Shown here in pieces: positions 27,663 through 46,357 of a stretch of 64,000 bases of DNA. The notes under the pieces were generated by a model. That model had not been told where the DNA came from. It worked only from the letters and a program-made list of their open reading frames with translations, and did no database searches. The DNA is taken from assembly GCF_058153355.1 (NCBI RefSeq), contig NZ_CM177019.1; one strand, written 5' to 3'. How positions within the stretch are numbered: position 1 is the stretch's first letter; each line of letters begins with the position of its first letter. Made by a program: the position numbers and the translations under genes.

Positions 27663-29897
<2,235 letters not shown>

Positions 29898-30171
29898 TTA
29901 TAATTGAATTAATCCACGGATGCGATAGTTGAGATCTTACATATTGTTGGTTAAAGAGATGTAGATCAAATTGATCGTAATTAAGCTTTTTTGATTATGT
30001 CCGAATTCGGACAAATGCTTTATAAAAAAGGGTTTTAGCTTCCTATTCTTCAAGGAAGGAGGGCGAAAACAAAGCTGACAACCTTATTTTTCCGCCCTCA
30101 TTTCGAGGCAGCATTTTGTGCTCTGTTTAAAATTTGTGATCACAGTGTGATTTTCACAAAAGGCACACTAT

Positions 30172-31065
<894 letters not shown>

Positions 31066-31118
31066 TTACCTCATCAATCGCTTGTAGTTATATGTTGTGT
31101 TGTGCACATCTATCCGTT

Positions 31119-31146
31119 TAGACGTCCAGATGTAAAGATGAAGGAA
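31119..31146. promoter_or_regulatory. tandem MetJ boxes in the metF promoter
   Basis: tagacgtccagatgtaaagatgaa: consecutive 8-bp repeats resembling the AGACGTCT met-box consensus, about 60-85 bp upstream of the metF start. Confidence 0.7.
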
Positions 31147-31414
31147 AAGCTGAAGGGCGTCAACCGAAAAATGACCAATGATGGTGAGGAAAAATCAGGG
31201 AAGATGAAAAAAATTCAGGATAAAGGCCAAAGTTCCTCGTACCTGAACATGTGGAATATACCTCATTTAAGATGATATTTATTTGTTTAATTATTTTTTC
31301 TATTAACCGGTGCAACGAGTGTTAAAGCGTGTAATTTTAGGATTATATCAATAGTCACGGTTATACAAACAGTGATAATTTATGAAATAATTTTATTTAC
31401 CAGAGGAATAGCGC

Positions 31415-32389
31415 ATGTATCTTAATACTCAAGTTCAATATAATAAGTTAAATAAAGATGAAAAAAAGATCCTGTTGTTACAAAAGCTAGCCCATTTAAC
31501 TGATTTTACTTTTGACAGAATAGAGACATTTTCAGCATTTGGACAATCTACTGAAACAGGTGTTTTTAAATATAAAGATGGCAATGAATTTGTTGTTGTC
31601 CCCGGGGATACAGTAATATTAGGGTGGGATGCCAGTCTCAATAATATGGATGGTCCGACAAAACAAGAATTTGAAGAGATGTTGGAACCAGAAGGTTTAG
31701 ATTTGAATAATTATCTCACCGACTCTTGCACACCTGTCAGGAAGGTTACAATTTCCCCGATGCTGGTTGAAAGAAACGTTCACGCCGAACCAAGTTGGAA
31801 GGAAGTATCTCTTACGGACCCCCGCATCACAGAGAACAGCATGCTGCAAAAATTTCTGTCTGATTATATGGAAAAAATTAATCCTGGAGTTCACGAATTA
31901 AACGCAAGATTGAAATTACAATATATAGATGGGGATTTATTTGCACAAATATATGAATCAATTAGCTATGATGAGTTACTTCAAAATATCCAAAGCAATA
32001 GTTTTGATCTTCCGAGCGAAGATGAATGGGAATATTTATGTGGCGGTGGTTCCAGGACACTCTGGCGCTGGGGGAATAATTTCGACTATCAAATGAAAAT
32101 CCCATTTATTACTTCAGAAGAACCAACAACCTGGGATATAGAATGGCCTAATCAGTTTGGGTTGCAGATTGCATTTGATCCCTATCTTCAGGAAATTATT
32201 AATGATAAAGATATTCTTCTGAAAGGTGGCGATGGTGGGTGCAATCTCTGCGGAGGTGCTAATGTTGTATTAGGATTCTTGCCTGTGGCAACTTATTACA
32301 AAGGATATAATAAACATACGGACGAATTAGAATATATGGATGACATTGGAGACAATTATACTTCTTATCGCAGAATAATTCGTTTATGA
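31415..32389 (+). CDS. hypothetical protein, FGE-sulfatase (SUMF1/EgtB/PvdO-like) domain suspected
   Basis: 324-aa ORF, very AT-rich by eye; motifs FVVVPGDTVILGWDAS, SEDEWEYLCGGGSRTLWRWGNNF and NQFGLQI resemble the MVxIPGGxFxMG, AEWEYAxRGG...PWG and NxxGLxDM motifs of formylglycine-generating-enzyme-like domains; no signal peptide. Confidence 0.5.
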   Translation: MYLNTQVQYNKLNKDEKKILLLQKLAHLTDFTFDRIETFSAFGQSTETGVFKYKDGNEFVVVPGDTVILGWDASLNNMDGPTKQEFEEMLEPEGLDLNNYLTDSCTPVRKVTISPMLVERNVHAEPSWKEVSLTDPRITENSMLQKFLSDYMEKINPGVHELNARLKLQYIDGDLFAQIYESISYDELLQNIQSNSFDLPSEDEWEYLCGGGSRTLWRWGNNFDYQMKIPFITSEEPTTWDIEWPNQFGLQIAFDPYLQEIINDKDILLKGGDGGCNLCGGANVVLGFLPVATYYKGYNKHTDELEYMDDIGDNYTSYRRIIRL

Positions 32390-32440
32390 GTAAAAATTAT
32401 ATTTCAGGACAAGAAGTTATGCTCGGGTCAAGCTAATGAA

Positions 32441-33952
32441 TTGCTTAACGCAAGGAATAAAAACGTATTGATGAACACTGGGAATTTCGAGTCGATACAA
32501 ATCATGATCGACGCGCAAGAGTGGCGTAGCCTGCCGCTGCATCTGCGTCTGTATCACGCTTTTCGCCAATTGGTGATTTCCGGCGCATTGTCTGATGGCG
32601 CAAAACTGCCTTCCGCTCGCGCACTGGCCCAGCAACTTGGTCTTTCCAGAGATACCATCGAAAATGCCTATTCCCAGCTCCACCGCGACGGTTTTATGGC
32701 TCGCAGGCAGGGGGCCGGGAGTTTCGCCAGCCGCCAGGGGATACCGCATATTCAGGGCCAGCATGCGCAACCACCCTCGCCCGGACAAGTACCGGCTTTA
32801 AGCGCTCGCTGGCAGCCAATTGCCGATCGCGCAGTCTCTTTCGATGCCCGCCAGATGCAGACCTTTACGCTTGGCCTGCCGGAAACGCGAAACTTCCCGC
32901 TAAACATTTGGCAGAACTTTTCCCGCCAGATCCAACGTGAGCAGGCACATACGCTGATGTTAAATAGCGATCCGCAGGGCGAGCCACAGCTGCGCCAGCA
33001 AATTGCGCATTACCTTAATTTTGAACGCGGCGCGAAGGTAGATGCCGGGCAGATTGTGATTGTCAGCGGCGCACGGCAGGCGTTCTGGCTGTGCGGGCAA
33101 CTGCTGGCAGAGGCCGGACAGTCGGTGGCGATGGAAAATCCGGGCTATCCCGGCGCGCGTCAGGCGTTTTCTGCCGCACAGCTTAATCTTCTTCCCGTTG
33201 AAGTGGATGACGCCGGGATCCGGGTGGATAAACTGCCGCCCGCGCCGCTGGTTTACGTCACGCCCTCGCACCAGTTTCCTTCCGGTCATTTGCTCACGCT
33301 GGCGCGGCGTCATGCCCTGATTGCCTGGGCGCAGGCGCACAATGCGTGGATTATCGAAGACGACTACGACAGCGAATTTCACTACACCAGCGCGCCCGTC
33401 GCCTGTCTGCAAGGGTTAGACTGCGAGCAACGCACCCTGTATGTCGGCACTTTCAGCAAAACGCTCTATCCCGGCCTGCGCATCGGTTATCTGGTGGTGC
33501 CGACGTCGCTGGCTGCGCACTTTGCCGCCGCGCGTAATTTGCTTGATGGCGCAACGCCTGCGTTATCCCAACTAACGCTGGCGCGATTTATCGAGTCCGG
33601 TCATTTTGCCGCCCATATTCGCAACATGCGTAGTATGTATGCGGTGCGACAGGGGTGCCTGGCAGAGGCTATTCATCAGCACTTAAGTGAATGGGTCACG
33701 CCAGTGGTGACATCCGGTGGATTGCAAATGCCCTGCTGGCTGCATGGAGGTATTGATGAGCAACAGACGCTGAATGCCGCGCGCCGCGCCGGGTTAAACA
33801 TCGCCGGAATGCGCCAGTTCTGGCTGACGCACCCCGCGCACGCGGGCTGGCTGCTGGGATTCGCCGCCTTTACCCCCTACGAGATTGAACAGGGCGTCAA
33901 GCGTCTGCGGGCTGCATTATGCACTGAAAACGTGCGCCCAGCCGGGTCATAA
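32441..33952 (+). CDS. MocR/GabR-type regulator (GntR HTH fused to a PLP aminotransferase-like domain)
   Basis: 503-aa ORF; N-terminal GntR-like HTH (LPSARALAQQLGLSRDTIENAYSQLHRDGFMARRQGAGSF) followed by a roughly 350-aa aminotransferase class I/II-like region; true start may be an internal Met; GC-rich by eye. Confidence 0.8.
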   Translation: MLNARNKNVLMNTGNFESIQIMIDAQEWRSLPLHLRLYHAFRQLVISGALSDGAKLPSARALAQQLGLSRDTIENAYSQLHRDGFMARRQGAGSFASRQGIPHIQGQHAQPPSPGQVPALSARWQPIADRAVSFDARQMQTFTLGLPETRNFPLNIWQNFSRQIQREQAHTLMLNSDPQGEPQLRQQIAHYLNFERGAKVDAGQIVIVSGARQAFWLCGQLLAEAGQSVAMENPGYPGARQAFSAAQLNLLPVEVDDAGIRVDKLPPAPLVYVTPSHQFPSGHLLTLARRHALIAWAQAHNAWIIEDDYDSEFHYTSAPVACLQGLDCEQRTLYVGTFSKTLYPGLRIGYLVVPTSLAAHFAAARNLLDGATPALSQLTLARFIESGHFAAHIRNMRSMYAVRQGCLAEAIHQHLSEWVTPVVTSGGLQMPCWLHGGIDEQQTLNAARRAGLNIAGMRQFWLTHPAHAGWLLGFAAFTPYEIEQGVKRLRAALCTENVRPAGS

Positions 33953-33956
33953 TCTC

Positions 33957-35003
33957 CTACGGGATGGTGTTGCAGGCAGCGGCAACCTGTTCCAGCGTCT
34001 GGCCTGCGCCAATAAATTCCACCTTATCGCCCGCTGTCGGCGTGACGGAGCTGGCATCGACCATAAAGCTGTCCATACAAACCCGCCCCAATACCGGTAA
34101 CCGCACGCCGCGCCAGCATACGCCCGCCGGAGGACGCATATTTCGCGGAACGCCATCCGCGTAACCCGCGGATATCGTAGCGATACGCAGCGGACGCGTG
34201 GCGGTAATCGTGCTGCCGTAGCCAACTGGCGTTCCCGCCGGGACATCCTGCACGCGCAGAATAGTTAGCGTCAGCGTAAAAGCCGGTTTTAGCGGCCTGG
34301 AAAACCACGGCTGGGCGACGCCAAACAGCGCAATCCCCGGACGGCAGAGATCTTCCCGCCAACCTGGTTGCAAAAACATTCCGCAGGAGTTCGCCAGCGA
34401 AAATCGGCTGCTGGGGAAAACCGTTTTTGCCTGCTGGAATAGCGCGTGTTGCGCCATATTTAACGCATGATCCGGCCTGTCGGCGTTCGCCAGATGGCTG
34501 ATGATATAGTCCGGCGCAGGCCAGTTACGCTCACGAAAAATCGCCGCCAGACGCATCAGTTGTTGCGGCATCATGCCCAGCCGCGACATACCAGAATCGA
34601 GCTGAATCATCACCGCGCTCCGTTGCTGGCGCGTTTCCAGTAACGTAAGCCACGCCATCACCTGGTCTACGGAATTGAGCAATGGCGTGATCTGCTGCGC
34701 GTAACAATACGCCATCGCCTCCGGCATAACCCCATTAAGCACTACCACCATCGCATCAGTGGGCAGGATTTTACGCAACGCCACGCCTTCAGAAAGCTGT
34801 GCGACAAAAAAGATCCGGCAGTTCGCCGCATACAGGGCGGGCGCAATCGCCTCCGCCCCCAGACCATAGGCATTGGCTTTCAACACCGCGCCACATTGCG
34901 CAGGGGCAGCATGGCGGGCCAGCATACGATAATTGTCGACGATGGCGGCGCGATTAACGCACATAACACCGCACGCCGCCTGGATTTCAGTAGAAGTCAT
35001 CAT
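33957..35003 (-). CDS. alanine racemase-family PLP enzyme (amino-acid racemase, specificity unknown)
   Basis: 348-aa ORF; VLKANAYGLG (PLP-lysine motif, cf. VVKANAYGHG in Alr) and SAGYADGVPR (cf. MGYGDGYPR catalytic Tyr region). Confidence 0.8.
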   Translation of the reverse strand: MMTSTEIQAACGVMCVNRAAIVDNYRMLARHAAPAQCGAVLKANAYGLGAEAIAPALYAANCRIFFVAQLSEGVALRKILPTDAMVVVLNGVMPEAMAYCYAQQITPLLNSVDQVMAWLTLLETRQQRSAVMIQLDSGMSRLGMMPQQLMRLAAIFRERNWPAPDYIISHLANADRPDHALNMAQHALFQQAKTVFPSSRFSLANSCGMFLQPGWREDLCRPGIALFGVAQPWFSRPLKPAFTLTLTILRVQDVPAGTPVGYGSTITATRPLRIATISAGYADGVPRNMRPPAGVCWRGVRLPVLGRVCMDSFMVDASSVTPTAGDKVEFIGAGQTLEQVAAACNTIP

Positions 35004-36238
35004 TAATAAGGCAACGGGTAGCGGTTGGTTAGTTGTATTACTTTTTGCTCAATATCGGCGCAAATGTCTGCAATATCTGATGAATTAATGGCGAAAATAA
35101 TTTCACTTATCCAGTCGGCAATCAGCGCAAAGTCATCCGCCTTCATCCCACGCGTGGTGCAGGCCGCGCTGCCAATACGAACGCCGGAGGTAATCAACGG
35201 CGGCTGCGGATCGCCCGGCAGGGTGTTTTTATTGACCGTGATCCCCGCCAGTTCGAGAAAGTACTCCACCTGTGCGCCGGTTAACCCCTGCGGGCGCAGG
35301 TCGATAATCCCCAGATGGCAGTCGGTGCCGTCCGTTAACAGCGTCAGGCCGCGCAGCGCCAGTTGCTGGCACATCGCCTGCGCATTGTCGATAACCTGCC
35401 CGGCATAACGTTTAAATTCCGGTTGTAATGCCTCGCCAAGCGCCACCGCTTTCGCTGCGATAACGTGCATCAACGGCCCGCCCTGCAAACCGGGAAAAAT
35501 GGCACTGTCGATTTTTTTCGCAAGCCTGGCGTCGTTGGTGAGGATCATGCCGCCGCGCGGCCCGCGCAATGTTTTATGCGTGGTGGTGGTGACCACATCA
35601 GCATACGCCAGCGGCGAAGGGAAACAGCCGCCCGCCACCAGCCCGGCAAAGTGCGCCATATCCACCAGCAAAATGGCGTCAACGGCATCGGCAATGCGGC
35701 GAAAACGGGCAAAATCATAGTGACGTGGATAAGCCGATCCTCCGGCAATAATCAACCGCGGGCGCTCACGCAGCGCGATCATCTCGACCTGATCCATATC
35801 AATCAAACCACTGTGCGCATCGACGCCATAGTGAAAAGCGTTAAACCATTTGCCGGATTGATTGACCGGCGAACCGTGCGTGAGATGCCCGCCGCATTGC
35901 AGGCTCATGCCAAGAATTTTGTCGCCGGGTTTCAGCAACGCCAGATGGACCGCCTGATTCGCCTGGCTGCCGGAGTGAGGCTGCACATTGACGTAACGCG
36001 CGCCAAAGAGCTGCTGCGCGCGGGTTATCGCCAGCATCTCAACCTCATCAATAAACTTACAGCCGCCGTAATAGCGATGCTGGTAATAACCTTCGGCGTA
36101 TTTATTGGTTAACACCGACCCCTGCGCCGCGAGAACGGCGGGGCTTACGAAATTCTCCGAGGCAATCAGTTCCAGCGACTGCTGCTGGCGCTGTTGCTCC
36201 TGGTTAATCAATGCAAAAAGTGGATCGTTATTTATCAT
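35003..36238 (-). CDS. serine hydroxymethyltransferase-family PLP enzyme (GlyA paralog)
   Basis: ORF 35003..36304; from [30 protein letters not shown] collinear with E. coli GlyA including [16 protein letters not shown] (PLP lysine); start at the internal Met preceded by gggggaag is more plausible, coordinate +/- a few bases. Confidence 0.85.
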
Positions 36239-36513
36239 GCGCTTCCCCCGCAAATTCATCATGCGATGATTTTCGCAGGGAAAACCTCGTCCGCACCCTG
36301 CCACTTTTTTGGGCAGGTGCAGACCACCTGTATGTCGTATTACTTAAAAGAAGAGAACATCGCTGACAATACCGGTATTAACTCCGAAATGAAGAGGGAA
36401 GAAGGCTCCGGCCATCTCCATGTGCGATTCTGGCTAGTAAAACATCATATTCCAGCTGCTCTTATCCGCCTACGTTATTGCATATACGGATAAGGCAGCC
36501 TCAATACGTACTT

Positions 36514-38067
36514 TTACTTGATATCTTTCACGCGCATACCGTTGATCTGTTCATCCGTGATGGTGTTACCCGCTTTAAAGTAATCAACCACCGCGTGATA
36601 AACGTAATAACCGCCCGTCGTATTGCGCGCTTTACCCTCGGTAAACGCGGTAAAACCATCTCCACCATCAGCAAGGAAACTCTGAGTGGCAATGTGGTAA
36701 ACCGTCGCATCTTCAATCGGTTTGCCATTCAAAGTCAGTGAGATAACCCGCTGACCAACCGGCTTGCTGCTGTCGTACTTCATTTCCAGGCCTTTCGATA
36801 CCTGTAAAACGCCATTACTTAAACTTGCGCCGTGTTCCATCAAACTGCGTAATTGTTTACCCGTGAGTTCCATCGTCACCAGTTCGTTGGGGAACGGGAA
36901 GGTACTGATGACGCCACCCATCGTAATTGCACCCGCCGGGATCTCATTGCGGATACCGCCAGAGTTGGTTAACGCCAACTGGGTATTTTTACCCGCCGCT
37001 GCCAGTAAAGCATCTGCCGCCAGGTTCCCGAGAGAAGCCGATTCACCATAGGCACGTTTTAGTTCAACCGGCGATTGCGCCACCGTTTGCTGCACGACTT
37101 CATCCAGCTTTTTATTCCAACTATCAATCACCTGTTTTGTTTGCGGATCGGGCTTCCACTCGTCGGCGTAAAGGGTTTTAAGCTCGAAGTTTTTCACCGT
37201 AAAAGTGTGCGGCTTCTCTTTGTAGTCCAGTACCAGTTTACCCACATCAATCCCACCGCTGTCAGTGGAGAGGATGAGCGTATTGCCGACTTTAATCGGT
37301 TCCGGCGTACCCACATGTGCATGCCCGGTGATCAAAATATCCAGCCCTTTCACCTGACTTGCCGTCTGAATATCTTTATCCAGTGCGCGGCGCACATCTG
37401 TGCCCCCCATACTGGACTGGCGGGCCGGAACACCTTCGTGAATCAGCGCAACGGTCAAATCAACCTTGCCTTTGAGTTCATCGATATAACGTTGTAGCCA
37501 TTTAATTTCATCACGCGCCTCAATACCCACTCGCGTTGCCGCAGATACCGTATCATTAAAGGCAAATACACCGTGCAAACCAATCACGCCAATTTTCACG
37601 CCGTCTTTTTCAATGATGGTATAGGGCTTATCCCAGAATGATTTACTGCTGTTCTGATAAAAAACATTACCCTGCACAATCGGGAATTTTGCCTGACTCA
37701 ACTGTAATAACGTATTGTCCCAGCCGTGATCAAATTCATGATTACCTATAGTGGCCGCATCGAACGGCATGGTATTCATAATATCGATAATCGCCTTGCC
37801 TTTAGTCAGGCTGCTGATATACGGCCCGGTAAAATAGTCACCCGCATCAAAAAACCAGGTCGCTTTGTTTTTAGCTTTTTCTTGTTTAACAAGCGTAGTG
37901 ATATTTGCCCAGCCGCCAATATCTCGTTTACCGTCAGCAATCCACGGCACTTTATAAGGCTCTACATGTGCATGGAGGTCGTTGGTATAAATGATGGTGA
38001 CATCTTTGGCGCAAGCCCAAAACGGCAGTGTTAATGCGATACCCGCAGCAAGCATTTTAATTTTCAT
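36514..38067 (-). CDS. secreted 5'-nucleotidase / metallophosphoesterase-family protein (UshA-like), paralog 1
   Basis: ORF 36514..38073; signal peptide [20 protein letters not shown]; calcineurin-like motifs NDLHAH, GDYFTG, GNHEFD, ITGHAHV and a C-terminal 5'-nucleotidase-type region; start trimmed to the ATG preceded by a purine-rich SD. Confidence 0.85.
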
Positions 38068-38125
38068 AAACAATCCCTTCCAGTGAGATAAAGGATTGCT
38101 ACATTACGTTCTGAAAGGCTTTTTT

Positions 38126-38199: not shown

Positions 38200-39327
38200 A
38201 TGTCAAATCTGTTTGCGATTAATGTCTGTAAAACGTTCGGTTGTCGAAATTTGGGATTGGCCTCATCGGAAGATTACAGTTGGCCAGACTATAAACTGGG
38301 TTTTCCGGCACTGCACTGCCAGGCATGCGGAAGTTACCCCCCTTTGTTTGATGAACAACAATTTCGTGACTGGTTGTCAGTTCACATGACTGCGTGTGCC
38401 ATAGAAACAGGGCATTTTTGTCCATCATGCTATTGTAAAGAAAAGATTTTTTATGGCCACAACCCGCAGGGAACACAACGCGTTCAATGCCGTTCATGCA
38501 AAAAAGTCTGGACTCCGAAACAGCAGCCAGCAAGAGAAATTACGTATCCCCAGTCCATTGAAACCGTTCAACTGTTCATGCCCTTTCAAGGAGCCAGCGC
38601 AGTACAAAAGCTCTATGTTTTAGTCAGTCTTGACGCCACTCGTGGCAACATCCTTCATCTCTCCACGAATTATACGCAACATCAGACAGGAGACAGTCTG
38701 CGGTACAGTTACAGAGGCAATACAGAACCAACTGAGCACCATAGCGATATTGTGCAGAGGGTAGATATGCGTGAAGCGCAATTCTTGCGCCGGAGCCAGT
38801 TCGATGAAATTCAGTATGGCAGTGCTGTGCTCAAGCGCAACGGCAAGGGAGCCATACTACGCCCGGTTATCACGGCACACGGGCATTTCAGAATACTGAA
38901 AATCCGCTTTCCACATGTCAAAACGCATATCATTTCACACGAATGTTTTCTGAGAGGCGCAATTATTACAGCCTGGGCAGATCAGTTCCGCCAACAACAA
39001 GGCGAACTTTGGTTCGTAGAAGAAGAAATCAGCGACCGTAACGCTGATATTCCCTGGCATTTTCAGGGAACGACATACCATGGTTGGTGGCAAAATCAGT
39101 GGCAACGCTGGGGGCAGGGGAATAACAGCAAGATGGTCTGCCTGCTCACAGGAGTCTCCTTAGAAAGGGGCGCAAATGTTTCTCTGGCAACCAGTCGTTG
39201 CTTTATCACATGGCTGACAGACCAACACGACTTTACCCAAAGCGCGTTATTATCCGCAGGTCGCGTAACGAAAATGCTGACCTCACTGGCGTTAAAATAC
39301 AATGAATCGCTCAATCCATCTTGTTAG
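38200..39327 (+). CDS. hypothetical Cys-rich protein with N-terminal zinc-ribbon(s), possibly transposase-derived DNA-binding protein
   Basis: 375-aa ORF; Cys pairs CKTFGC...CQAC and CPSCYCKEK-x14-RVQCRSCKKVWT resemble the IS1 InsA / IS1595-type zinc ribbon (CPSC...QRYLCSHCRKTWQ); remainder not recognisable; no signal peptide. Confidence 0.45.
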   Translation: MSNLFAINVCKTFGCRNLGLASSEDYSWPDYKLGFPALHCQACGSYPPLFDEQQFRDWLSVHMTACAIETGHFCPSCYCKEKIFYGHNPQGTQRVQCRSCKKVWTPKQQPAREITYPQSIETVQLFMPFQGASAVQKLYVLVSLDATRGNILHLSTNYTQHQTGDSLRYSYRGNTEPTEHHSDIVQRVDMREAQFLRRSQFDEIQYGSAVLKRNGKGAILRPVITAHGHFRILKIRFPHVKTHIISHECFLRGAIITAWADQFRQQQGELWFVEEEISDRNADIPWHFQGTTYHGWWQNQWQRWGQGNNSKMVCLLTGVSLERGANVSLATSRCFITWLTDQHDFTQSALLSAGRVTKMLTSLALKYNESLNPSC

Positions 39328-39556
39328 TCAATACACTCGACAAACGACCATAAATTAATGGGATCACTATTTCTCATTTAATTAAATATATGAATGTATG
39401 ACTGAAAAATATAATCACAGTCAATGTTTAATTAATAACATTATTTGTTACTAAGATCACATAATACTTTCCTGACCTATGCTTACATAAAAATAAGACA
39501 CGGAGTTCCTTTTATTTAAATAATTCAACCAATGTAACAACCCCTATCAAGGAGGG

Positions 39557-41110
39557 ATGATGAGAACTGTATTTACGACTTTATCAGTCATATTCAGCGT
39601 GATGTTTTCTCACAGTATACTAGCTCAGGACGTTACTATTTATTATACGAATGATATTCACGCACATGTCAATCCGGCAAAAATTCCCGCTGTTGATAAG
39701 AACAGACTTGTAGGTGGTATGGCTAATATTGCAGGCATCGTTAATGAAGCGAAGAAAAAAAACAAAGATGTCTTTTTCTTTGATGCAGGCGACTATTTTA
39801 CCGGTCCGTATATCAGTACCCTGACCAAAGGTGAAGCTATTATTGATATCATGAACACCATGCCCTTTGATGCGGTATCCGTTGGTAATCACGAGTTCGA
39901 TCACGGCGTGCCCAATATGGTATCTCAGTTATCAAAAGCAAAATTCCCCATTCTGCTGGGAAATATTTACTACACCGATACAAATAAACCAGTTTGGGAT
40001 CATCCGTGGACCATTATCGAAAAAGATGGTTTAAAGATTGGTGTGATTGGATTGCATGGTGCATTCGCTTTCTATGATACAGTCGCGGCAAAAGCACGTG
40101 AAGGCGTAGAAGCCAGAGACGAAATTAAATATTTAAATAAAGCACTTGCAGAATTAAAAGGTAAAGTCGACATTACCGTTTTGCTAATTCACGAAGGTGT
40201 TCCGGCGCGTCAATCAAGCTTTGGTAGTAAAGATGTGGAGCGGCTACTACAGGCAGATATTGAGACAGCTAAAAAAGTGAATGGTGTTGATGTCTTAATT
40301 ACCGGTCACGCACATGTCGGAACACCGCAACCAATAAAAGTTAATAACACATTAATTGTATCTACCGATGCATACGGCACCGACATCGGAAAACTTGTGC
40401 TTGATTACAATCCGAAAACGAAGAAAATTGATAGTTATAATGGTGAGTTAATCACCATCTTCGCAGATCAATTTAAACCTGACACCATCGTTCAAAATAC
40501 TATCGATAAATGGAGTGCAAAGCTTAACAAAATAACACAGGAAGTTGTCGGCCATTCTCCCGTAGTTTTAACACGTGAGTATGGCAGTTCTTCTTCTACC
40601 GGTAACCTTATTCTTGATGCAATGATGGAAAAAACACCAGATGCCATTGCCGGATTTCAAAATAGCGGTGGGATGCGAGCTGATTTTCCTAAAGGTGATA
40701 TCACGCTGGGAGATGTTATTAGCACATTCCCCTTTAATAATGACCTCATCGAGATGGATTTGACGGGCCGCGATCTCAAATCGTTGATGACGCATGCAAC
40801 CAATCTAACTAACGGTGTGTTACAGGTTTCAAAAAGCGTTGCGGTTGTCTATGACAGCAAAAAACCACTGAACCAACGGTTAATCTCTTTCACCATTAAC
40901 GGCAAACCCGTGGAAGATAATCAAACATATCGTATTGTCACGCACTCCTTTTGTGCCAGTGGTGGTGACGGTTTTGAAGCATTTTTGAATGGAAAAAATG
41001 TGAAGACGATACCGGGAACAACCTCGGCGGAATCTATCATCGATTATTTCAAAAATCATAAACCTGTCACCCCAGACTTAACTAAACGAGTAATGGACGT
41101 CGCCAAATAA
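39557..41110 (+). CDS. secreted 5'-nucleotidase / metallophosphoesterase-family protein, paralog 2
   Basis: 517-aa ORF, AT-rich; signal peptide MMRTVFTTLSVIFSVMFSHSILA; same motif set (NDIHAH, GDYFTG, GNHEFD, ITGHAHV); collinear with paralogs 1 and 3. Confidence 0.85.
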   Translation: MMRTVFTTLSVIFSVMFSHSILAQDVTIYYTNDIHAHVNPAKIPAVDKNRLVGGMANIAGIVNEAKKKNKDVFFFDAGDYFTGPYISTLTKGEAIIDIMNTMPFDAVSVGNHEFDHGVPNMVSQLSKAKFPILLGNIYYTDTNKPVWDHPWTIIEKDGLKIGVIGLHGAFAFYDTVAAKAREGVEARDEIKYLNKALAELKGKVDITVLLIHEGVPARQSSFGSKDVERLLQADIETAKKVNGVDVLITGHAHVGTPQPIKVNNTLIVSTDAYGTDIGKLVLDYNPKTKKIDSYNGELITIFADQFKPDTIVQNTIDKWSAKLNKITQEVVGHSPVVLTREYGSSSSTGNLILDAMMEKTPDAIAGFQNSGGMRADFPKGDITLGDVISTFPFNNDLIEMDLTGRDLKSLMTHATNLTNGVLQVSKSVAVVYDSKKPLNQRLISFTINGKPVEDNQTYRIVTHSFCASGGDGFEAFLNGKNVKTIPGTTSAESIIDYFKNHKPVTPDLTKRVMDVAK

Positions 41111-41144
41111 AATATCATTTATCAGTCTATTTATTTAACAAGGA

Positions 41145-42770
41145 ATGCGAATGAAAACAGTGCAGCGTACTTTACTTGCCGCAACATTGCTGACTATTTT
41201 TTCGGTCTCAGCCATGGCGCAGGATGTCACGATTATTTATACCAATGATCTTCACGCTCATGTGGATTCTTATAAAGTGCCGTATATCGCAGACGGAAAA
41301 CGCGACATTGGCGGCTTTGCCAATATATCTACTTTAGTAAAACAAGAGAAAGCGAAAAATAAAGCCACCTTTTATTTTGATGCTGGAGACTATTTCACCG
41401 GCCCTTATATCAGCAGTCTGACAAAGGGCGAAGCAATAATTGACATTATGAATACCATGCCTTTTGACGCAGTATCAATCGGTAATCATGAGTTTGACCA
41501 TGGCTGGGATAATGCCCTGCGACAATTAAGCAAAGCGAATTTTCCTGTTTTATTGGGCAATGTTTATCATAAAGAGAGTGAGAAACCCTTCTGGAACAAG
41601 CCCTACACCATCCTGGAAAAAGATGGCATCAAGATTGGTATTATTGGGCTACACGGCGTATTTGCATTTAATGATACGGTCTCGGAGCTCTCTCTCCAGG
41701 GACTCGATAATGACAATAATAACCGCTTTGATAAATCTTCCGAGACCCTTAAGAATCAGGGGATTGAAGCACGTGATGAAGTGAAGTATTTGCAGCATTA
41801 TATCGACGAGTTACGTGATAAGGTTGACCTCACTGTGGCGCTGGTTCATGAAGGCGTTCCGGCGCGTCAGTCCAGCATTGGCATTACAGATGTTAGACGC
41901 GCTCTTGATAAAGATATTCAAACCGCTAGCAAGGTGAAAGGATTGGATATTCTGATTACCGGGCATGCCCACGTCGGAACGCCAGAACCAATCAAAGTCG
42001 GCAACACCTTAATCCTTTCAACTGATAGTGGCGGTATCGATATTGGTAAATTAGTCCTTGATGTCAACCCTACAGCTCGTACCCATAAAATGAAGAGCTT
42101 TGAGCTGAAAACAGTTTATGCCGATGAATGGATACCCGATCCAACGACACAAAAAGTTATCAATGGCTGGAATAAAAAACTGGCGGATATTGTACGCCAA
42201 CCAGTGGGTGAATCATCGATTGCATTAACTCGCGCCTATGGTGAGTCATCGCAACTAGGCAACCTGTTTACCGATGCAATGCTTGTCGCTGCTCCGACTG
42301 CACAGATTGCATTGATAAACTCCGGCAGCTTACGTGCGGATATAAATGCAGGCACGATTACCTTTGGCGACATTACCAGTACATTCCCCTTCAAGAATGA
42401 ACTTACTGAAATGGATCTCAGCGGTAAGGATCTGCGTAACCTACTGGAACACGGGGCATCGCTTACCAATGGCATCCTGCAAATGTCAAAAGGCGCAGAA
42501 ATGCGCTATACCCCGCAGAAACCAGTAGGTCAGCGCATAGTATCTTTTAAAATTAATGGTGAAGAGATCGTTGATACGAATATTTACCATGTTGCAACAA
42601 CGACTTTCCTTGCACTGGGGGGCGATGGTTTTCTGGCATTCAAAGAAGGGAAAAATGTTCAGGTCCGCGCCGGAAAAAACATGTCCGATGTCGTGATCGA
42701 TTATTTGAAGAAAGGCCACAAGATTACGCCTGCACAGGTAAATGAAATGCGGGTGGACGTTAGCAAATAA
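41145..42770 (+). CDS. secreted 5'-nucleotidase / metallophosphoesterase-family protein, paralog 3
   Basis: 541-aa ORF; signal peptide MRMKTVQRTLLAATLLTIFSVSAMA; highly similar to paralog 1 but with an extra Asp/Asn-rich insertion of about 25 aa (SELSLQGLDNDNNNRFDKSSETLKNQG). Confidence 0.85.
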   Translation: MRMKTVQRTLLAATLLTIFSVSAMAQDVTIIYTNDLHAHVDSYKVPYIADGKRDIGGFANISTLVKQEKAKNKATFYFDAGDYFTGPYISSLTKGEAIIDIMNTMPFDAVSIGNHEFDHGWDNALRQLSKANFPVLLGNVYHKESEKPFWNKPYTILEKDGIKIGIIGLHGVFAFNDTVSELSLQGLDNDNNNRFDKSSETLKNQGIEARDEVKYLQHYIDELRDKVDLTVALVHEGVPARQSSIGITDVRRALDKDIQTASKVKGLDILITGHAHVGTPEPIKVGNTLILSTDSGGIDIGKLVLDVNPTARTHKMKSFELKTVYADEWIPDPTTQKVINGWNKKLADIVRQPVGESSIALTRAYGESSQLGNLFTDAMLVAAPTAQIALINSGSLRADINAGTITFGDITSTFPFKNELTEMDLSGKDLRNLLEHGASLTNGILQMSKGAEMRYTPQKPVGQRIVSFKINGEEIVDTNIYHVATTTFLALGGDGFLAFKEGKNVQVRAGKNMSDVVIDYLKKGHKITPAQVNEMRVDVSK

Positions 42771-42792
42771 TAAAAAAATTATAATGCCATTC

Positions 42793-42826
42793 ATTCACTG
42801 AATGGCATTATTTTCTCTAAATCAAC
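42793..42826 (+). terminator. intrinsic terminator after nucleotidase paralog 3
   Basis: aatgccattcattcactgaatggcatt inverted repeat followed by attttctc. Confidence 0.65.
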
Positions 42827-42847
42827 AATAGATAATGAGATATATTT

Positions 42848-43708
42848 ATGTGTATAAAAAAGCACGGGATAGCTTTATCGATTCTATTAATACCTTGCAT
42901 TGGAAACGCTCAGGAAATTAAAAGTGAGGAAGGCTGGTTACATCAAAGCTTGAATGTCATTGGTCGCACAGACTCTCGCTTTGGCCCAAGGCTGACTAAC
43001 GACCTCTACCCTGAATATACTGTAGCAGGAAGAAAAGACTGGTTTGATTTTTATGGTTATGTTGATCTACCAAAATTCTTTGGCGTCGGCAGTCACTATG
43101 ATGTTGGGATCTGGGATGAGGGCTCACCACTATTTACGGAAATAGAACCTCGGTTTTCCATTGACAAATTGACCGGATTAAATCTTGCGTTCGGCCCTTT
43201 TAAAGAATGGTTCATTGCAAACAACTATGTCTATGATATGGGTGACAACCAGTCATCCCGGCAAAGTACATGGTATATGGGGCTTGGTACAGATATCGAC
43301 ACGGGTCTACCAATTAAGCTTTCTGCCAATATATACGCCAAGTATCAGTGGCAAAACTATGGTGCCGCTAATGAAAATGAATGGGACGGATATCGATTCA
43401 AAATAAAATATAGCATTCCTCTTACCCATTTATTCGGAGGGCGATTGGTATACAATAGTTTTACTAACTTTGATTTTGGATCCGATCTTGCGGACAAATC
43501 ACACAATAATAAACGAACCAGTAATGCTATTGCTTCAAGCCATATCCTTTCCCTGCTATATGAACACTGGAAATTTGCATTTACACTACGTTATTTTCAC
43601 AACGGTGGACAATGGAATGCTGGGGAGAAAGTTAACTTCGGAGATGGTCCATTTGAATTAAAAAACACAGGATGGGGAACCTATACTACTATTGGTTATC
43701 AATTTTAA
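42848..43708 (+). CDS. Tsx-family outer-membrane nucleoside-specific channel protein (paralog of tsx)
   Basis: 286-aa ORF, AT-rich; signal peptide then blocks matching E. coli Tsx from memory ([97 protein letters not shown]) and a C-terminal aromatic residue. Confidence 0.85.
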
Positions 43709-43854
43709 ATCAGGTGATGTTTTAGATATTTTTACTTAATGCCATTTTGTAATTGTCATAAATAACTTCACCATTCACACTGTGAATTCATCGCTCAACA
43801 CAAAAGCCCCCTTATTACCGGGGCACTGACCAAAGGCAAAATGACAATCAATCA

Positions 43855-43876
43855 CCACCTCCGCAGGAGGTGGTTT
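43855..43876 (+). terminator. terminator hairpin after the Tsx-like gene
   Basis: ccacctccgcaggaggtgg followed by ttt. Confidence 0.5.
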
Positions 43877-43887
43877 AGAGGTGACAA

Positions 43888-43914
43888 CAAAAGCTGGCAA
43901 CTGCCAGCTTTTGT
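43888..43914 (-). terminator. terminator hairpin immediately downstream of metL
   Basis: aaaagctggcaactgccagctttt palindrome flanked by A/T runs, directly 3' of the metL stop on the minus strand. Confidence 0.6.
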
Positions 43915-43924
43915 TCAATAATCA

Positions 43925-46357
43925 CTACAACAACTGCGCCAGACGGTTAATATCCGACTGAATCGCCCCGGCGGTGACGTCGCGCCCTGCGCCTGGCCCA
44001 CGGATCACCAGCGGGTTGTCGCGATACCAGCGGCTTTCGATGGCAAAGACGTTATCGCACGGTAGTAGTGATGCCAGCGGATGGTCTTCTCGCACCGCTT
44101 CCACGCCTACTCGCGCTTTGCCGTTAGCATCGAAACGCGCCACGTAGCGCAACACCAGCCCCATTTCACGGGCCGCTTCCAACCGTTGTACCATCTGCTC
44201 ATTAAGTTCATCGCCATTTTCAAAGAAATGGTCGATGCTGCCACCTTCGCAATGGGTTGGCACCAGTGATTCAACACGCACCTGGTCCGGTTCAATGTTG
44301 TAACCCGCTTCACGCGCCAGAATCACCAGCTTGCGCATCACATCTTTGCCGGAGAGGTCATCACGCGGGTCAGGTTCAGTTAAGCCCTGCTGCCACGCCT
44401 GATCCACCAGCTCAGTAAACGGCACGCTACCGTCGAATTGCAGGAACAGCCAGGAGAGCGTGCCGGAGAAGATCCCGCTGATCGACAAAATAGTGTCGCC
44501 GCTGTCGATCAGATCGCGCACGGTATGGTTGATCGGCAAACCTGCGCCGACGGTGGCGTTGTATAGCCAGTGACGCCCGGTTTTTTCGAACGCGTCGTGG
44601 ATCTGTCGATATTTATTGCTGTCGCTGGCTCCCGCCAGTTTGTTGGCACTGATGACGTGGAAACCGTGGCTGGCGAAATCGAGATACTGATCAGCAAGCT
44701 GCTGGCTGGCAGTAACGTCCAGCACCACTAAATCATCATACGGATGGGCACGCATCCACAGGAACAGCGACTCTTCATCCTGTTCGACGGCTTCATCATT
44801 AAAGAAGGCTAGCGCACGGCTGGCGTCCAGCCCGTCATAGCTCAACAGGCTGCGACGGCTGTCCACCACGCCTGCCAGCACAAATTCAAAGCCGGTGCGC
44901 GCCGAGAGCGTGCTCTGCTCACGGGCGAACAGTTCCAGCCAGCGGGAACCGATATTGCCCTTACCGAACAATACCAGGCCGATGCGTTTTTCTGCGCGGA
45001 AGACGGACTGATGCAGCCCCTGAATCAGGCTTTCGGTCGGCCCGGTGCGCAGTACTGCCACCAGGCTGATGCCGTCATCGGACTGCCAGGTAAACTCGAC
45101 CGGCTGGCCTTTCAGTTGCTGCCAGAAGCGGTGGCAATGCAGCGGGTTACGGGTGACGCCCGCCCCAACCATCGCCACCAGCGCCAGCCCCTGACGCAGG
45201 CGCAGTTCGCCGGGTAATCCTGCTTCGTCGAGGATTTTCAGCGCACTGTCGGCCACTTCCGAGGTGTAGCAAAATTGCAGCAACTGGCGATCGTTATGCA
45301 CGCCAACTGCCAGTGGGCGCACCTGAGCACGTTTCAGGATTTGGTCGATCTCTTTATGCGCCAGTTTAAAATCCTGACTGGCGGGCACCTGAAACTCAAT
45401 CAAACAGACATCATCGTGGCTGGTGACAATACGCGCGCCAGTACCTGAGGCCAGCACGCGTTCAATACGCGTAGATCCTTGATCCGGTGTATAGCTACAG
45501 CGCAGCTGCAGGTCGATTTCGCTGCCAGAAACTGGCTGTAAAGTACGCGCGTGCAACACTGGCGCGGCAAGACGCGCCAGTTCACTGGCTTCATCAAGAC
45601 GCAGCAATGGCAGCAGACAGGCATCTTTCACTTTACGCGGGTCGGCACTATATACCCCGGCGACATCGCTCCAGATGGTTACGCGGGAAACCCCCGCCAG
45701 CGCACCGATTTGTGTCGCGGAATAGTCGGAACCGTTACGCCCCAGCAGCACCGTTTCACCGGCGTTGTTACGGCTGATAAACCCGGTCACCACCAGACGT
45801 TTGCCCGGATGTTGTACCAGTAGCTGTTGCAGCAACGGGTAAGAAAGCCCTTCATCAACCTGCGGCTGCGCGGCGCGTTCAGCGCGTAAAAACTCGCGGG
45901 CATCAAGCCAGGCCGCTGGCAGCCCTTGTTGATTAAGTACCGCAGACATCAGGCGCGCCGACCACACTTCACCGTGGCCCACCACTTCCGCATACACCGC
46001 ATCGTTAATACCGCTGTCGAGCAGCGCCGCCAGGCGTTCCAGATCGCTGACAAAAGCGCTAATGAGGCTATCGGCTTCTTCAGCGGGTAGCAGGCCGCTA
46101 ATCAGATCGCACTGATAGCGACGCAGCGTTTGTTGAACCTGATGCGCAGAGAGACGATCGGTCTGGCTTAGTTTCAACCAGTTAATCAACTGGTTAGTGG
46201 TGCTACCGGCGGCGGAAACCACCATCATATCGTCAGGCTGAGAGTACTCCGCCATAATGCCCGCGACACGCAAATAACACTTCACATCAGCCAGACTACT
46301 GCCACCAAATTTATGCAGTTGACGACCTTTCGCCCCTGCCTGCGCAATCACACTCAT
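43925..46357 (-). CDS. metL: bifunctional aspartokinase II / homoserine dehydrogenase II
   Basis: 810-aa ORF MSVIAQAGAKGRQLHKFGGSSLADVKCYLRVAGIMAEYSQPDDMMVVSAAG. Confidence 0.96.
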   Translation of the reverse strand: MSVIAQAGAKGRQLHKFGGSSLADVKCYLRVAGIMAEYSQPDDMMVVSAAGSTTNQLINWLKLSQTDRLSAHQVQQTLRRYQCDLISGLLPAEEADSLISAFVSDLERLAALLDSGINDAVYAEVVGHGEVWSARLMSAVLNQQGLPAAWLDAREFLRAERAAQPQVDEGLSYPLLQQLLVQHPGKRLVVTGFISRNNAGETVLLGRNGSDYSATQIGALAGVSRVTIWSDVAGVYSADPRKVKDACLLPLLRLDEASELARLAAPVLHARTLQPVSGSEIDLQLRCSYTPDQGSTRIERVLASGTGARIVTSHDDVCLIEFQVPASQDFKLAHKEIDQILKRAQVRPLAVGVHNDRQLLQFCYTSEVADSALKILDEAGLPGELRLRQGLALVAMVGAGVTRNPLHCHRFWQQLKGQPVEFTWQSDDGISLVAVLRTGPTESLIQGLHQSVFRAEKRIGLVLFGKGNIGSRWLELFAREQSTLSARTGFEFVLAGVVDSRRSLLSYDGLDASRALAFFNDEAVEQDEESLFLWMRAHPYDDLVVLDVTASQQLADQYLDFASHGFHVISANKLAGASDSNKYRQIHDAFEKTGRHWLYNATVGAGLPINHTVRDLIDSGDTILSISGIFSGTLSWLFLQFDGSVPFTELVDQAWQQGLTEPDPRDDLSGKDVMRKLVILAREAGYNIEPDQVRVESLVPTHCEGGSIDHFFENGDELNEQMVQRLEAAREMGLVLRYVARFDANGKARVGVEAVREDHPLASLLPCDNVFAIESRWYRDNPLVIRGPGAGRDVTAGAIQSDINRLAQLL

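What the first reader, a model, noticed from the sequence alone, without database searches (positions are those of the whole stretch)
31415..32389. AT-rich stand-alone FGE-sulfatase-like gene at the metF edge of the island
This 324-aa protein has motifs resembling the formylglycine-generating-enzyme / EgtB / PvdO fold, yet there is no sulfatase, kinase or NTPase partner nearby that would explain it, and its composition is unlike the neighbouring GC-rich PLP module. Stand-alone FGE-like proteins in enterobacterial accessory regions are poorly characterised; the domain can act as an oxygen-dependent Cys-modifying enzyme or as a ligand-binding/sensor module.
Basis: inference. Interest (0 to 1): 0.55.

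Follow-up and report, generated by a model that had tools for sequence, protein, structure and literature searches.

The report
Stand-alone divergent FGE-fold gene cassette
A rare, AT-rich, horizontally acquired E. coli gene encodes a cytoplasmic protein with a very divergent formylglycine-generating-enzyme fold; its family is widespread and uncharacterised, always stands alone, and keeps a conserved glycine/cysteine loop where true FGEs bind copper, so its function is unknown but it is not an ordinary sulfatase activator.

Summary

It is a single-gene cassette, independent of the PLP module. E. albertii carries it alone at the same metF-metL junction, and only 2 of 5426 complete E. coli genomes have it.

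It belongs to a distinct full-length family of about 930 clusters at 50% identity, spread patchily over many bacterial phyla and gut archaea. Across 80 loci no neighbour is conserved: no sulfatase, kinase, NTPase, T6SS or DGR.

Family-specific conservation sits on C209 and a loop K-G-G-D-G-G-x3-[C/H]-G-G in the region of the FGE copper-binding loop. The canonical CxxxxC pair is not kept.

My best reading is an autonomous metal-site enzyme or ligand binder (about 0.45). The main rival is a non-catalytic neutralising or immunity-like binder (about 0.3). It is a new variant of a known superfamily and of moderate interest.

The parts
31222..31414 (+). Upstream part of the inserted cassette: AT-rich leader with the ribosome-binding site (AGAGGA about 8 nt before the ATG). 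The left insertion junction lies between 31221 and 31222.
   Evidence: Alignment of the window, E. albertii and an empty-site E. coli: all three are identical up to 31221. After that, the window and E. albertii share the insert and the empty site diverges. Sequence read. Promoter-like hits are not above chance.
31415..32389 (+). Coding sequence of the 324-aa stand-alone FGE-fold protein (WP_000281214.1 in RefSeq, annotated there as hypothetical protein).
   Evidence: ORF list; 99.9% identical in 2 RefSeq E. coli genomes; dN/dS 0.07 against E. albertii; homologues; AF2 model pLDDT 86.7.
31415..31579 (+). Family-specific N-terminal extension (aa 1-55): two short helices plus a beta-hairpin ahead of the FGE core. 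No signal peptide or transmembrane segment, so the protein is predicted cytoplasmic.
31586..31609 (+). First core strand motif E-F-V-x-V-P-G-D (aa 58-65), the counterpart of the 'MVxIPGGxFxMG' start of FGE-sulfatase domains.
   Evidence: Invariant E58 F59 V60 V62 P63 G64 in alignment A1. The global hhalign run places residue 57 against residue 1 of the FGE core, 'SKMVPIPAG'.
31772..31954 (+). Family-specific insert (about aa 120-180: strand, two helices, beta-hairpin) between the first FGE core strands and the EWEY motif.
   Evidence: Model secondary structure; poorly conserved, indel-rich columns in A1; no confident counterpart in the FGE alignment.
32012..32074 (+). Superfamily signature L-P-[ST]-E-D-E-W-E-Y-L-C-G-G-G...W-G (aa 200-220), including the family-conserved C209.
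   Evidence: This is the only stretch matched by Pfam PF03781, PDB FGE/ToxD and hhalign. C209 is Cys in 92% of 156 members and 88% of the non-redundant set.
32147..32164 (+). P-N-Q-F-G-L motif (aa 245-250), the counterpart of FGE 'PNGYGL'.
   Evidence: hhalign aligns it to FGE PNGYGL. N246 is 99% conserved, F248 97% and G249 100%.
32222..32263 (+). Family-defining glycine/cysteine loop K270-G-G-D273-G-G-C276-N-L-C279-G-G-x-[G/N] (aa 270-283), lying in the region of the FGE [RK]GGS..C....C copper-binding loop. Candidate metal or active site.
   Evidence: D273 99%, G274/G275 99%, K270 88% (plus R 8%), C279 96%, C276 67%. In the non-redundant set position 279 is C in 90% and H in about 6.5%. This is the lowest-confidence part of the model, pLDDT below 50 at 273-275. 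The register against FGE is ambiguous (and motif spacing).
32366..32386 (+). C-terminal strand Y-R-R-I-I-R-L (aa 318-324), with near-invariant R319. Probable counterpart of the 'GFR' end of FGE-sulfatase domains.
   Evidence: R319 is invariant in A1 and present in 151 of 156 members. The counterpart assignment comes from motif order and is an inference.

Best explanation
SHOWN: the gene encodes a cytoplasmic, stand-alone member of a distinct and so far uncharacterised clade of the FGE-sulfatase / C-type-lectin-fold superfamily. It entered the metF-metL intergenic hotspot as a single-gene, AT-rich cassette and is kept under strong purifying selection. INFERRED: the protein works alone, without an operon partner, through a conserved site built from the loop K-G-G-D-G-G-x3-[C/H]-G-G together with C209, in the region where true FGEs hold their Cu(I)-binding cysteines. 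The Cys/His interchange at position 279, the invariant Asp273 and the conserved C209 point to a bound metal ion (Cu, Zn or Fe). I therefore think it most likely is a metal-dependent enzyme, or a tight ligand binder, acting on a widely available substrate. By analogy with FGE that would be a thiol-containing peptide, protein or small molecule, but not a sulfatase. The actual substrate and reaction are unknown.
For: Fold and superfamily. Real, selected gene: dN/dS 0.07, and only the Superficieibacter copy is frameshifted. Distinct full-length family: 360 word-indexed homologues with about 98% coverage; 930 representative clusters, 441 of them at E<=1e-10; whole-length structural matches at TM 0.8-0.96 to uncharacterised AFDB proteins. 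Autonomy: E. albertii carries the gene alone at the same junction. Clustering of 1178 ORFs from 80 loci in about 28 taxa found no conserved neighbour, the best being a generic cluster in 13 loci. Pfam scanning of 83 same-strand adjacent neighbours showed no enriched family. Conserved site: 31 invariant positions in 30 sequences from six or more phyla at about 40% identity. Conservation specific to the family, as opposed to superfamily-wide structural motifs, sits on D273/G274/G275 (99%), C279 (96%) and C209 (92%). Position 279 is C in 90% and H in 6.5% of the non-redundant set, and the loop survives even in the 30%-identical Lachnospiraceae branch, as KGGDGGCSLCGGDG. Such conservation is typical of catalytic or metal sites and not of fast-evolving immunity proteins.
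Against: No biochemical datum exists for any member. The first Cys (C276) is only 55-67% conserved. The canonical FGE CxxxxC spacing is absent, and the residue-level register against FGE is ambiguous. C209 and C279 are not lost together more often than chance would give (Fisher p = 0.12). The best structural neighbours (PvdO, PorK, TvpA, pFGE) are non-catalytic scaffolds or of unproven activity. Some contexts look like immunity arrays: an Imm-NTF2 gene next to a fusion member and a Colicin_Pyocin immunity gene about 5 kb upstream in Brevibacillus. Tandem paralogues occur in Lachnospiraceae, and giant fusions with DUF4241, DUF4261, DUF1963 and TPR often carry degenerate loops. I could not inspect 3D coordinates, so the clustering of C209, C276, C279 and D273 in space is unverified.
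Confidence: 0.45

Rival explanations
1. The protein is a non-catalytic binding or neutralising protein: an orphan immunity-like gene. The FGE fold would serve as a scaffold that binds and blocks an incoming toxin or other foreign protein, as Tsi3 does for the T6SS effector Tse3, and the gene spreads horizontally as a protective cassette.
Against: No toxin, VgrG, PAAR, LXG or Rhs gene is adjacent in the window or enriched in 80 loci. The family occurs in Firmicutes, Fusobacteria and archaea that lack T6SS. It has no signal peptide. Sequence conservation is far higher than is usual for immunity proteins: invariant D273/E260/N246, 40% identity across phyla, dN/dS 0.07. The immunity-type contexts amount to 2 anecdotes among about 90 loci.
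Confidence: 0.3
2. The protein is a bona fide aerobic formylglycine-generating enzyme that matures a Cys-type sulfatase encoded elsewhere in the genome.
For: It has the FGE fold and an EWEY..C..GG motif. A Cys-containing loop follows a [K]GG motif at roughly the position of the FGE catalytic loop.
Against: Pfam covers only 44 of 255 model positions, at 20 bits. The CxxxxC pair is replaced by CxxC with a poorly conserved first Cys. No sulfatase is nearby or enriched among neighbours in 80 loci. The gene is present in only 2 of 5426 E. coli genomes, although E. coli sulfatase genes are core (established knowledge). Large family-specific insertions are present.
Confidence: 0.05
3. The protein is a detached sensor ('FGS') module of a conflict or defence system (STAND NTPase, kinase, vWA-MoxR or DGR target) that works with a partner encoded in trans, or is a remnant of such a system.
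For: FGE/FGS domains are common sensor or effector modules in such systems (PMC7159879; PMC12803255 listed). There is a weak PHROG 'kinase' hit through the FGE motif. Two neighbours among the 83 had weak nSTAND3 hits.
Against: PADLOC gives no hit. No phage homologues were found. No reverse transcriptase, template repeat or hypervariable C-terminus is present; the C-terminus is conserved. No NTPase or kinase fusion appears among the top 150 representatives. Strong purifying selection argues against a remnant.
Confidence: 0.07

Closest known systems
Aerobic formylglycine-generating enzyme (human SUMF1; S. coelicolor and T. curvata FGE; Pfam PF03781)
   Same: Same fold (Foldseek probability 0.99-1.0). 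Shared motifs: VPGG-type first strand, LPTExEWEY..C.GG...WG, PN.[FY]GL, [RK]GG and a terminal Arg. A cysteine-bearing loop follows the [RK]GG motif. Like bacterial FGEs it would be cytoplasmic.
   Different: Only 12-16% identity, and Pfam matches 44 of 255 positions. The protein has a 55-aa N-terminal extension and a roughly 60-aa insert. The CxxxxC Cu pair is replaced by x/C-x-x-C/H within an all-glycine frame (KGGDGG...GG). There is no sulfatase association and the gene is never found in sulfatase operons.
Non-catalytic or unproven FGE-fold proteins: PvdO (5HHA), PorK/GldK (9MZU), pFGE/SUMF2 (1Y4J), TvpA (2Y3C), CalU17, ToxD
   Different: Those proteins are periplasmic, secreted or pathway-embedded (pyoverdine, T9SS, DGR, calicheamicin and toxoflavin clusters). 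This one is cytoplasmic, has no pathway context, and carries its own strongly conserved Gly/Cys loop.
[quoted passage not shown] 2021, bioRxiv 10.1101/2021.05.21.445229)
   Same: An FGE-fold protein that is not an FGE, with a mobile, strain-variable distribution. It offers a possible 'binder' logic.
   Different: Per the paper, Tsi3 homologues sit opposite tse3 next to vgrG, mostly in tandem groups, in T6SS-bearing Proteobacteria, and lack conserved cysteines. Here there is no T6SS context, usually a single copy, a range that includes Firmicutes, Fusobacteria and Archaea, and conserved Cys/His.
EgtB / OvoA / SenA sulfoxide and selenoxide synthases
   Different: No DinB_2 domain, no conserved His triad and no conserved His at all. 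No ergothioneine or ovothiol genes are nearby.
Uncharacterised AFDB relatives, including DUF7278 proteins of Enterococcus and related genera
   Same: They share the whole-length architecture: TM 0.8-0.96 for 'Sulfatase-modifying factor enzyme domain-containing' proteins and about 0.7 for DUF7278 proteins.
   Different: None is characterised. No paper in the searchable library mentions DUF7278.

Membership tests
FGE-sulfatase / C-type-lectin-like superfamily (Pfam PF03781, clan level) | Statistically supported profile similarity to FGE-sulfatase domains | tested here: met
   Pfam i-E 6e-4 (partial); 19 of 30 members at E<=1e-3; family HMM against PDB FGEs E 5e-6; hhalign against human FGE probability 96.4%, E 1e-9.
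FGE-sulfatase / C-type-lectin-like superfamily (Pfam PF03781, clan level) | FGE-type fold in three dimensions | tested here: met
Bona fide aerobic FGE (SUMF1-type, Cu-dependent) | Two catalytic, Cu(I)-binding cysteines in a C-x4-C loop after [RK]GGS | tested here: not met
   The loop is KGGDGG-C276-x2-C279. The first Cys is 55-67% conserved and the second is C in 90-96% and H in about 6%. The low-confidence global hhalign run puts C279 on FGE C336 and C276 on S333, with no C341 equivalent. Motif spacing allows C276 = C336. Neither register reproduces the CxxxxC pair.
Bona fide aerobic FGE (SUMF1-type, Cu-dependent) | Genomic or functional link to a Cys-type sulfatase (CxPxR substrate) | tested here: not met
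   No sulfatase within the 16 kb either side in the syntenic strain. No sulfatase cluster or Pfam family is enriched among neighbours in 80 loci.
Bona fide aerobic FGE (SUMF1-type, Cu-dependent) | Formylglycine-generating activity | not testable with these tools
   This needs an in-vitro assay on CxPxR peptides with Cu(I), O2 and a reductant.
EgtB/OvoA/SenA sulfoxide synthases | N-terminal DinB_2 domain with an iron-binding His triad fused to the FGE-like domain | tested here: not met
   No DinB hit in Pfam for the protein or for 30 relatives. No invariant or near-invariant His in A1.
Tsi3-type FGE-like T6SS immunity proteins | Encoded next to tse3, vgrG, PAAR or DUF4123, usually in tandem groups, in T6SS-positive Proteobacteria | tested here: not met
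   The window context is metF / MocR-Alr-SHMT. E. albertii has the gene alone between metF and metL. The 80 loci include T6SS-less phyla and show no such neighbours.
Tsi3-type FGE-like T6SS immunity proteins | Sequence membership (RPS-BLAST E<1e-50 to Tsi3, per the paper) | not tested
   The Tsi3 sequence (WP_032046197.1) is not retrievable with the tools.
DGR variable proteins (Mtd/TvpA-type CLec fold) | Hypervariable C-terminal VR with a nearby template repeat and reverse transcriptase | tested here: not met
Polymorphic-toxin immunity genes / poly-immunity loci | Recurrent location downstream of toxin genes or inside arrays of recognised immunity families | tested here: inconclusive
   Two suggestive cases: an Imm-NTF2 gene adjacent to fusion protein P0130, and a Colicin_Pyocin immunity gene about 5 kb upstream with DUF4253 adjacent in Brevibacillus. 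There is no enrichment among 83 adjacent neighbours and none in the Escherichia loci.
Known anti-phage defence systems (PADLOC) | Match to a PADLOC model | tested here: not met
   0 families at E<=10. No homologue in 50,697 phage records.

The most novel reading that the evidence does not exclude
The family, defined by the K-G-G-D-G-G-x3-[C/H]-G-G loop plus C209 on an elaborated FGE fold, is a new class of autonomous cytoplasmic metalloenzymes descended from the FGE scaffold. It would modify a non-sulfatase thiol or protein target and move as a single-gene cassette between bacterial phyla and gut archaea. Alternatively, it is a universal single-gene neutraliser of a widespread toxin.
Probability: 0.25. 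Interest if true: 0.6.

Novelty: new variant of a known kind. Interest (0 to 1): 0.36.

Why it matters
The FGE fold has been re-used repeatedly: Cu oxidase, sulfoxide synthase partner, T9SS ring, T6SS immunity, DGR receptor, gravity-sensing crystal. This family would add a further, widespread and wholly uncharacterised branch of about 930 clusters at 50% identity. It has its own conserved candidate metal site and an unusual lifestyle as an always-solitary, horizontally mobile gene shared between bacteria and gut archaea. For E. coli genomics, it shows that the metF-metL 'island' is a mosaic of independently acquired cassettes. For annotation, it shows that names such as 'formylglycine-generating enzyme family protein' or 'nonheme iron enzyme' over-state what is known. 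The practical impact is modest until a substrate or partner is found.

Tried and rejected
- **NCBIfam, PADLOC, PHROGs:** nothing useful. GldK scored 0.03 and a PHROG 'kinase' 4.5e-5 through the EWEY motif only.
- **Phages and plasmids:** no phage homologue, and only 1 good plasmid hit, from Subdoligranulum.
- **Conserved operon partner:** ORF calling plus all-against-all clustering on 80 loci, and Pfam on 83 adjacent same-strand neighbours, found no conserved or enriched partner. The Pfam summary lists only the top 20 families, so single occurrences of immunity families cannot be excluded.
- **Fusobacterium/Leptotrichia tight arrays:** they looked like immunity arrays, but the neighbours are a DUF523-like protein, a membrane protein, a lipoprotein and a kinase/phosphatase-like protein. 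I rejected them as evidence.
- **NCBIfam on the giant fusion proteins:** only TPR-like noise. Pfam identified DUF4241, DUF4261, DUF1963, DUF5713 and DUF6966, all of unknown function. The literature search on these DUFs gave only the YwqG/TYPP paper.
- **FGE profile for a better C-terminal alignment:** the homologue search with human FGE returned only vertebrate orthologues, which are too uniform to help. The global hhalign run is low-confidence beyond PNQFGL.
- **P0207:** a 2404-aa protein with 7 canonical FGE repeats that matches only through the EWEY motif. It is not a family member.
- **Literature:** no paper mentions WP_000281214 or DUF7278.
- **Regulatory and RNA features:** the promoter/terminator scan was not above chance, and Rfam found nothing in 29000-34000.
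- **Cys209/Cys279 co-loss:** not significant (p = 0.12).
- **OCTIN:** considered and rejected. It is secreted, has a full-length Pfam FGE domain and lacks the cysteines.

Full report
**1. The observation**

The window carries an ATG-initiated ORF at 31415..32389 (+), 324 aa, exactly as described. An AGAGGA ribosome-binding site lies about 8 nt upstream.

Its composition is clearly foreign. GC is 0.365 and GC3 0.308, against 0.526/0.596 for metF, 0.555/0.59 for katG and 0.56-0.59/0.64-0.66 for the adjacent MocR-Alr-SHMT module. The window average is 0.513.

The ORF is a real, selected gene:
- It has hundreds of full-length homologues.
- Nei-Gojobori dN/dS against the E. albertii orthologue is 0.07, with dS about 1.2. 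Against an Escherichia sp. copy it is 0.22.
- The only decayed copy seen is a frameshifted one in Superficieibacter electus.

**2. Where it sits**

The window is the E. coli chromosome between katG-metF and metL.
- Only 2 of 5426 complete E. coli genomes carry the gene, at 99.9% identity. It is annotated there as 'hypothetical protein' WP_000281214.1.
- All other genomes match only the first 222 bases of the query (metF end and promoter region).
- Aligning the window with an empty-site strain and with E. albertii puts the left insertion junction between 31221 and 31222. The junction is identical in E. coli and E. albertii.
- In E. albertii the gene is the only insert between metF and metL.
- The GC-rich PLP module occurs in a third E. 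coli strain (GF4-3) without this gene, preceded there by PTS/MalI genes.
- The 5'-nucleotidase part of the island is found in 1843 of 5426 genomes.

The 'island' is therefore a mosaic in a recombination hotspot. The finding is an independent single-gene cassette and not a component of the PLP module.

**3. What the protein is**

Sequence-level evidence for an FGE relationship is weak but consistent:
- Pfam FGE-sulfatase scores i-E 6e-4, 20 bits, over residues 184-226 only.
- 19 of 30 relatives reach E<=1e-3.
- phmmer against PDB finds ToxD at 0.004 and FGEs at about 0.2.
- A family profile lifts FGEs to E 5e-6.
- hhalign of the family alignment against human FGE gives probability 96.4%, E 1e-9, from the 'SY/SW' strand through LPTEDEWEY..GG..WG to PNQFGL = PNGYGL. 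I wrote the human sequence from memory and then validated it as identical to PDB 1Y1E.

Structure evidence agrees. An AF2 model built on 30 diverse relatives is confident (pLDDT 86.7, pTM 0.85).
- Foldseek gives FGEs at probability 0.99-1.0, but global TM is only 0.3-0.46.

Only about half of the protein is the FGE core. An N-terminal extension (aa 1-55) and an insert (aa about 120-180) are specific to the family. The N-terminus is hydrophilic with no signal peptide, so the protein should be cytoplasmic.

**4. The family**

Homologues cover about 98% of the query length and are 315-350 aa long. They come from E. albertii (84%), Superficieibacter (70%), Listeria (58%), Paenibacillus, Cohnella, Brevibacillus, Chitinophaga, Cytophagales, Fusobacterium, Leptotrichia, Breznakiella, Clostridia/Lachnospiraceae, Chthonomonas, Lysobacter, Methylobacterium, Sandaracinaceae and gut Methanomethylophilaceae archaea.
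- An exhaustive search of 1.84 billion cluster representatives finds 930 at E<=1e-3 and 441 at E<=1e-10.
- AFDB50 shows the whole-length architecture (TM 0.8-0.96) in many 'Sulfatase-modifying factor enzyme domain-containing' proteins, and at TM about 0.7 in DUF7278 proteins. None of these is characterised.
- No phage record carries it and only one plasmid record has a good match. PADLOC has no model for it.

**5. No partner**

I called ORFs in 80 loci (1178 ORFs, about 28 taxa) and clustered them all-against-all.
- Apart from the family itself, the most widespread neighbour cluster occurs in 13 loci and is generic. Everything else is lineage-specific synteny.
- Pfam scanning of 83 non-redundant, same-strand, closely spaced neighbours shows no enriched family. 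There is no sulfatase, kinase, T6SS, toxin or RT family among them.

**6. The conserved site**

In 30 sequences averaging about 40% identity, 31 positions are invariant.

Most of them are the structural motifs common to the whole superfamily: EFVxVPG, R109, M116..E119, Y180, EWEY, WG, PNxFG, E260 and the terminal R319.

What is specific to this family is C209 (in EWEYLCGGG) and the loop K270-G-G-D273-G-G-C276-N-[IL]-C279-G-G-x-G.
- Over 156 full-length members, D273, G274 and G275 are 99% conserved, C279 96%, C209 92%, K270 88% (plus 8% R) and C276 67%.
- In a set made non-redundant at 80% (170 domains), position 279 is Cys in 90% and His in about 6.5%. This Cys/His interchange is typical of metal ligands.
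- Fully degenerate loops occur mostly in the giant fusion proteins.
- The loop survives unchanged in the 30%-identical Lachnospiraceae branch.
- It is the least confident part of the model, with pLDDT below 50 at 273-275. That is what one expects of a Gly-rich loop that needs a ligand.

By motif order the loop lies in the region of the FGE [RK]GGS-x2-C-x4-C copper loop, but the register is ambiguous.
- Using G271-G272 as the 'GG', C276 equals FGE C336 and C279 falls two residues short of C341.
- The global hhalign alignment, which has low confidence there, uses G274-G275. That puts C276 on S333 and C279 on C336, with nothing on C341.

Either way the canonical CxxxxC pair is not reproduced. The protein fails the test for a bona fide FGE while retaining a plausible metal or thiol site in the same place.

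**7. Hints for the rival 'binder/immunity' reading**

Members are sometimes fused into 500-1800-aa proteins with TPR, DUF4241, DUF4261, DUF1963 (YwqG/TYPP), DUF5713 and DUF6966.
- One such fusion is followed by an Imm-NTF2 gene in a tight same-strand array.
- In Brevibacillus the gene lies among small hypothetical genes, with DUF4253 adjacent and a colicin/pyocin-immunity-type gene about 5 kb upstream.
- Lachnospiraceae have tandem paralogues.

The literature shows that FGE folds can serve as non-enzymatic scaffolds:
- Tsi3 T6SS immunity proteins (bioRxiv 10.1101/2021.05.21.445229).
- PorK (PMC12421860) and OCTIN (PMC5915273).
- 'Neutralising' FGS modules (PMC7159879).
- A C-type-lectin-fold fusion to YwqG, noted as a protein-binding context (PMC4275035).

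These cases are anecdotal, about 2 of 90 loci. The family is also far more conserved than immunity proteins usually are.

**8. Verdict**

Shown:
- It is a real, selected, horizontally acquired, stand-alone gene.
- It has a divergent FGE fold.
- It belongs to a distinct, widespread and uncharacterised family.
- No conserved partner exists.
- It is not a canonical FGE, EgtB, Tsi3-context, DGR or defence-system member.

Inferred:
- It acts on its own through a metal-binding Gly/Cys(His) loop in the region of the FGE active-site loop, as an enzyme or tight ligand binder on a non-sulfatase target. I put this at about 0.45.
- The main alternative is a non-catalytic neutralising or immunity-like binder, at about 0.3.

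It is a new variant of a known superfamily. Interest is moderate, because nothing yet points to a specific new mechanism. A conserved C/H-containing loop on a solitary, cross-domain mobile gene is still a clean target for biochemistry.

Noticed in passing
window 32441-36304: The GC-rich module of a MocR-type PLP regulator, alanine racemase and SHMT paralogue is itself very rare. It is found in 3 of 5426 complete E. coli genomes and occurs in strain GF4-3 with different upstream cargo (PTS EIIC and MalI). It is therefore a separate acquisition from the target gene.
   Followed up: partly
window 35003-36304 (- strand): The SHMT paralogue is an intact 433-aa ORF in this window. In the RefSeq strain checked here (2013C-4282) it carries an internal stop (Q to stop at '...RYAG*VIDN'), and RefSeq marks the GF4-3 copy as a pseudogene too. 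This window comes from a strain that keeps the gene functional.
   Followed up: partly
window 36514-38073 and downstream (about 38200-44000): This is the 5'-nucleotidase/metallophosphatase part of the metF-metL island. In the syntenic strain it holds three paralogues, a 'cytoplasmic protein' and a Tsx-like channel. It is common, found in 1843 of 5426 E. coli genomes. A nucleotidase also flanks the target gene in Escherichia sp. MOD1-EC7003 and in Superficieibacter.
   Followed up: partly
L030:7990-9000 (Superficieibacter electus): The 70%-identical orthologue next to metF is split by a frameshift: the N-terminal two-thirds lie in one frame and the C-terminal third in another. It is a pseudogene or a sequencing error.
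   Followed up: partly
L053:7971-13662 and L082 (Methanomethylophilaceae archaea); P0131, P0183: Gut archaea and gut Firmicutes share near-collinear giant proteins of 1250-1770 aa. They start with one or two copies of this FGE-like domain carrying a degenerate loop (RGGDLGGNI..), followed by TPR and DUF4261/DUF4241-type modules. This suggests cross-domain transfer of a multi-domain 'polyvalent' protein of unknown role.
   Followed up: partly
L051:7977-10009 and L054 (Lachnospiraceae): Two family paralogues (350 and 313 aa) sit in tandem, 31-38 nt apart. One has V and the other C at the position equivalent to C276.
   Followed up: no
L093:548-9265: The fusion protein P0130 (unknown N-terminal region, FGE-like domain, then DUF4241) heads a tightly packed same-strand array. 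The array contains an Imm-NTF2 gene, several unannotated genes, a NADAR gene and a C_GCAxxG_C_C gene. It looks like a heterogeneous immunity or counter-conflict locus.
   Followed up: no
window 31222 versus L002:8139-8273: In empty-site E. coli strains a 135-nt 'hypothetical protein' is annotated across the point where the cassette is inserted. It is probably an annotation artefact of the metF-metL spacer.
   Followed up: no
window 31415-32389 versus L003/L014: Synonymous divergence between the E. coli and E. albertii alleles is high (dS about 1.2-1.3) even though they share an insertion junction. This hints that the alleles are older than the host split or were exchanged by recombination of the flanks. 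I did not compare this with the dS of the flanking core genes.
   Followed up: no
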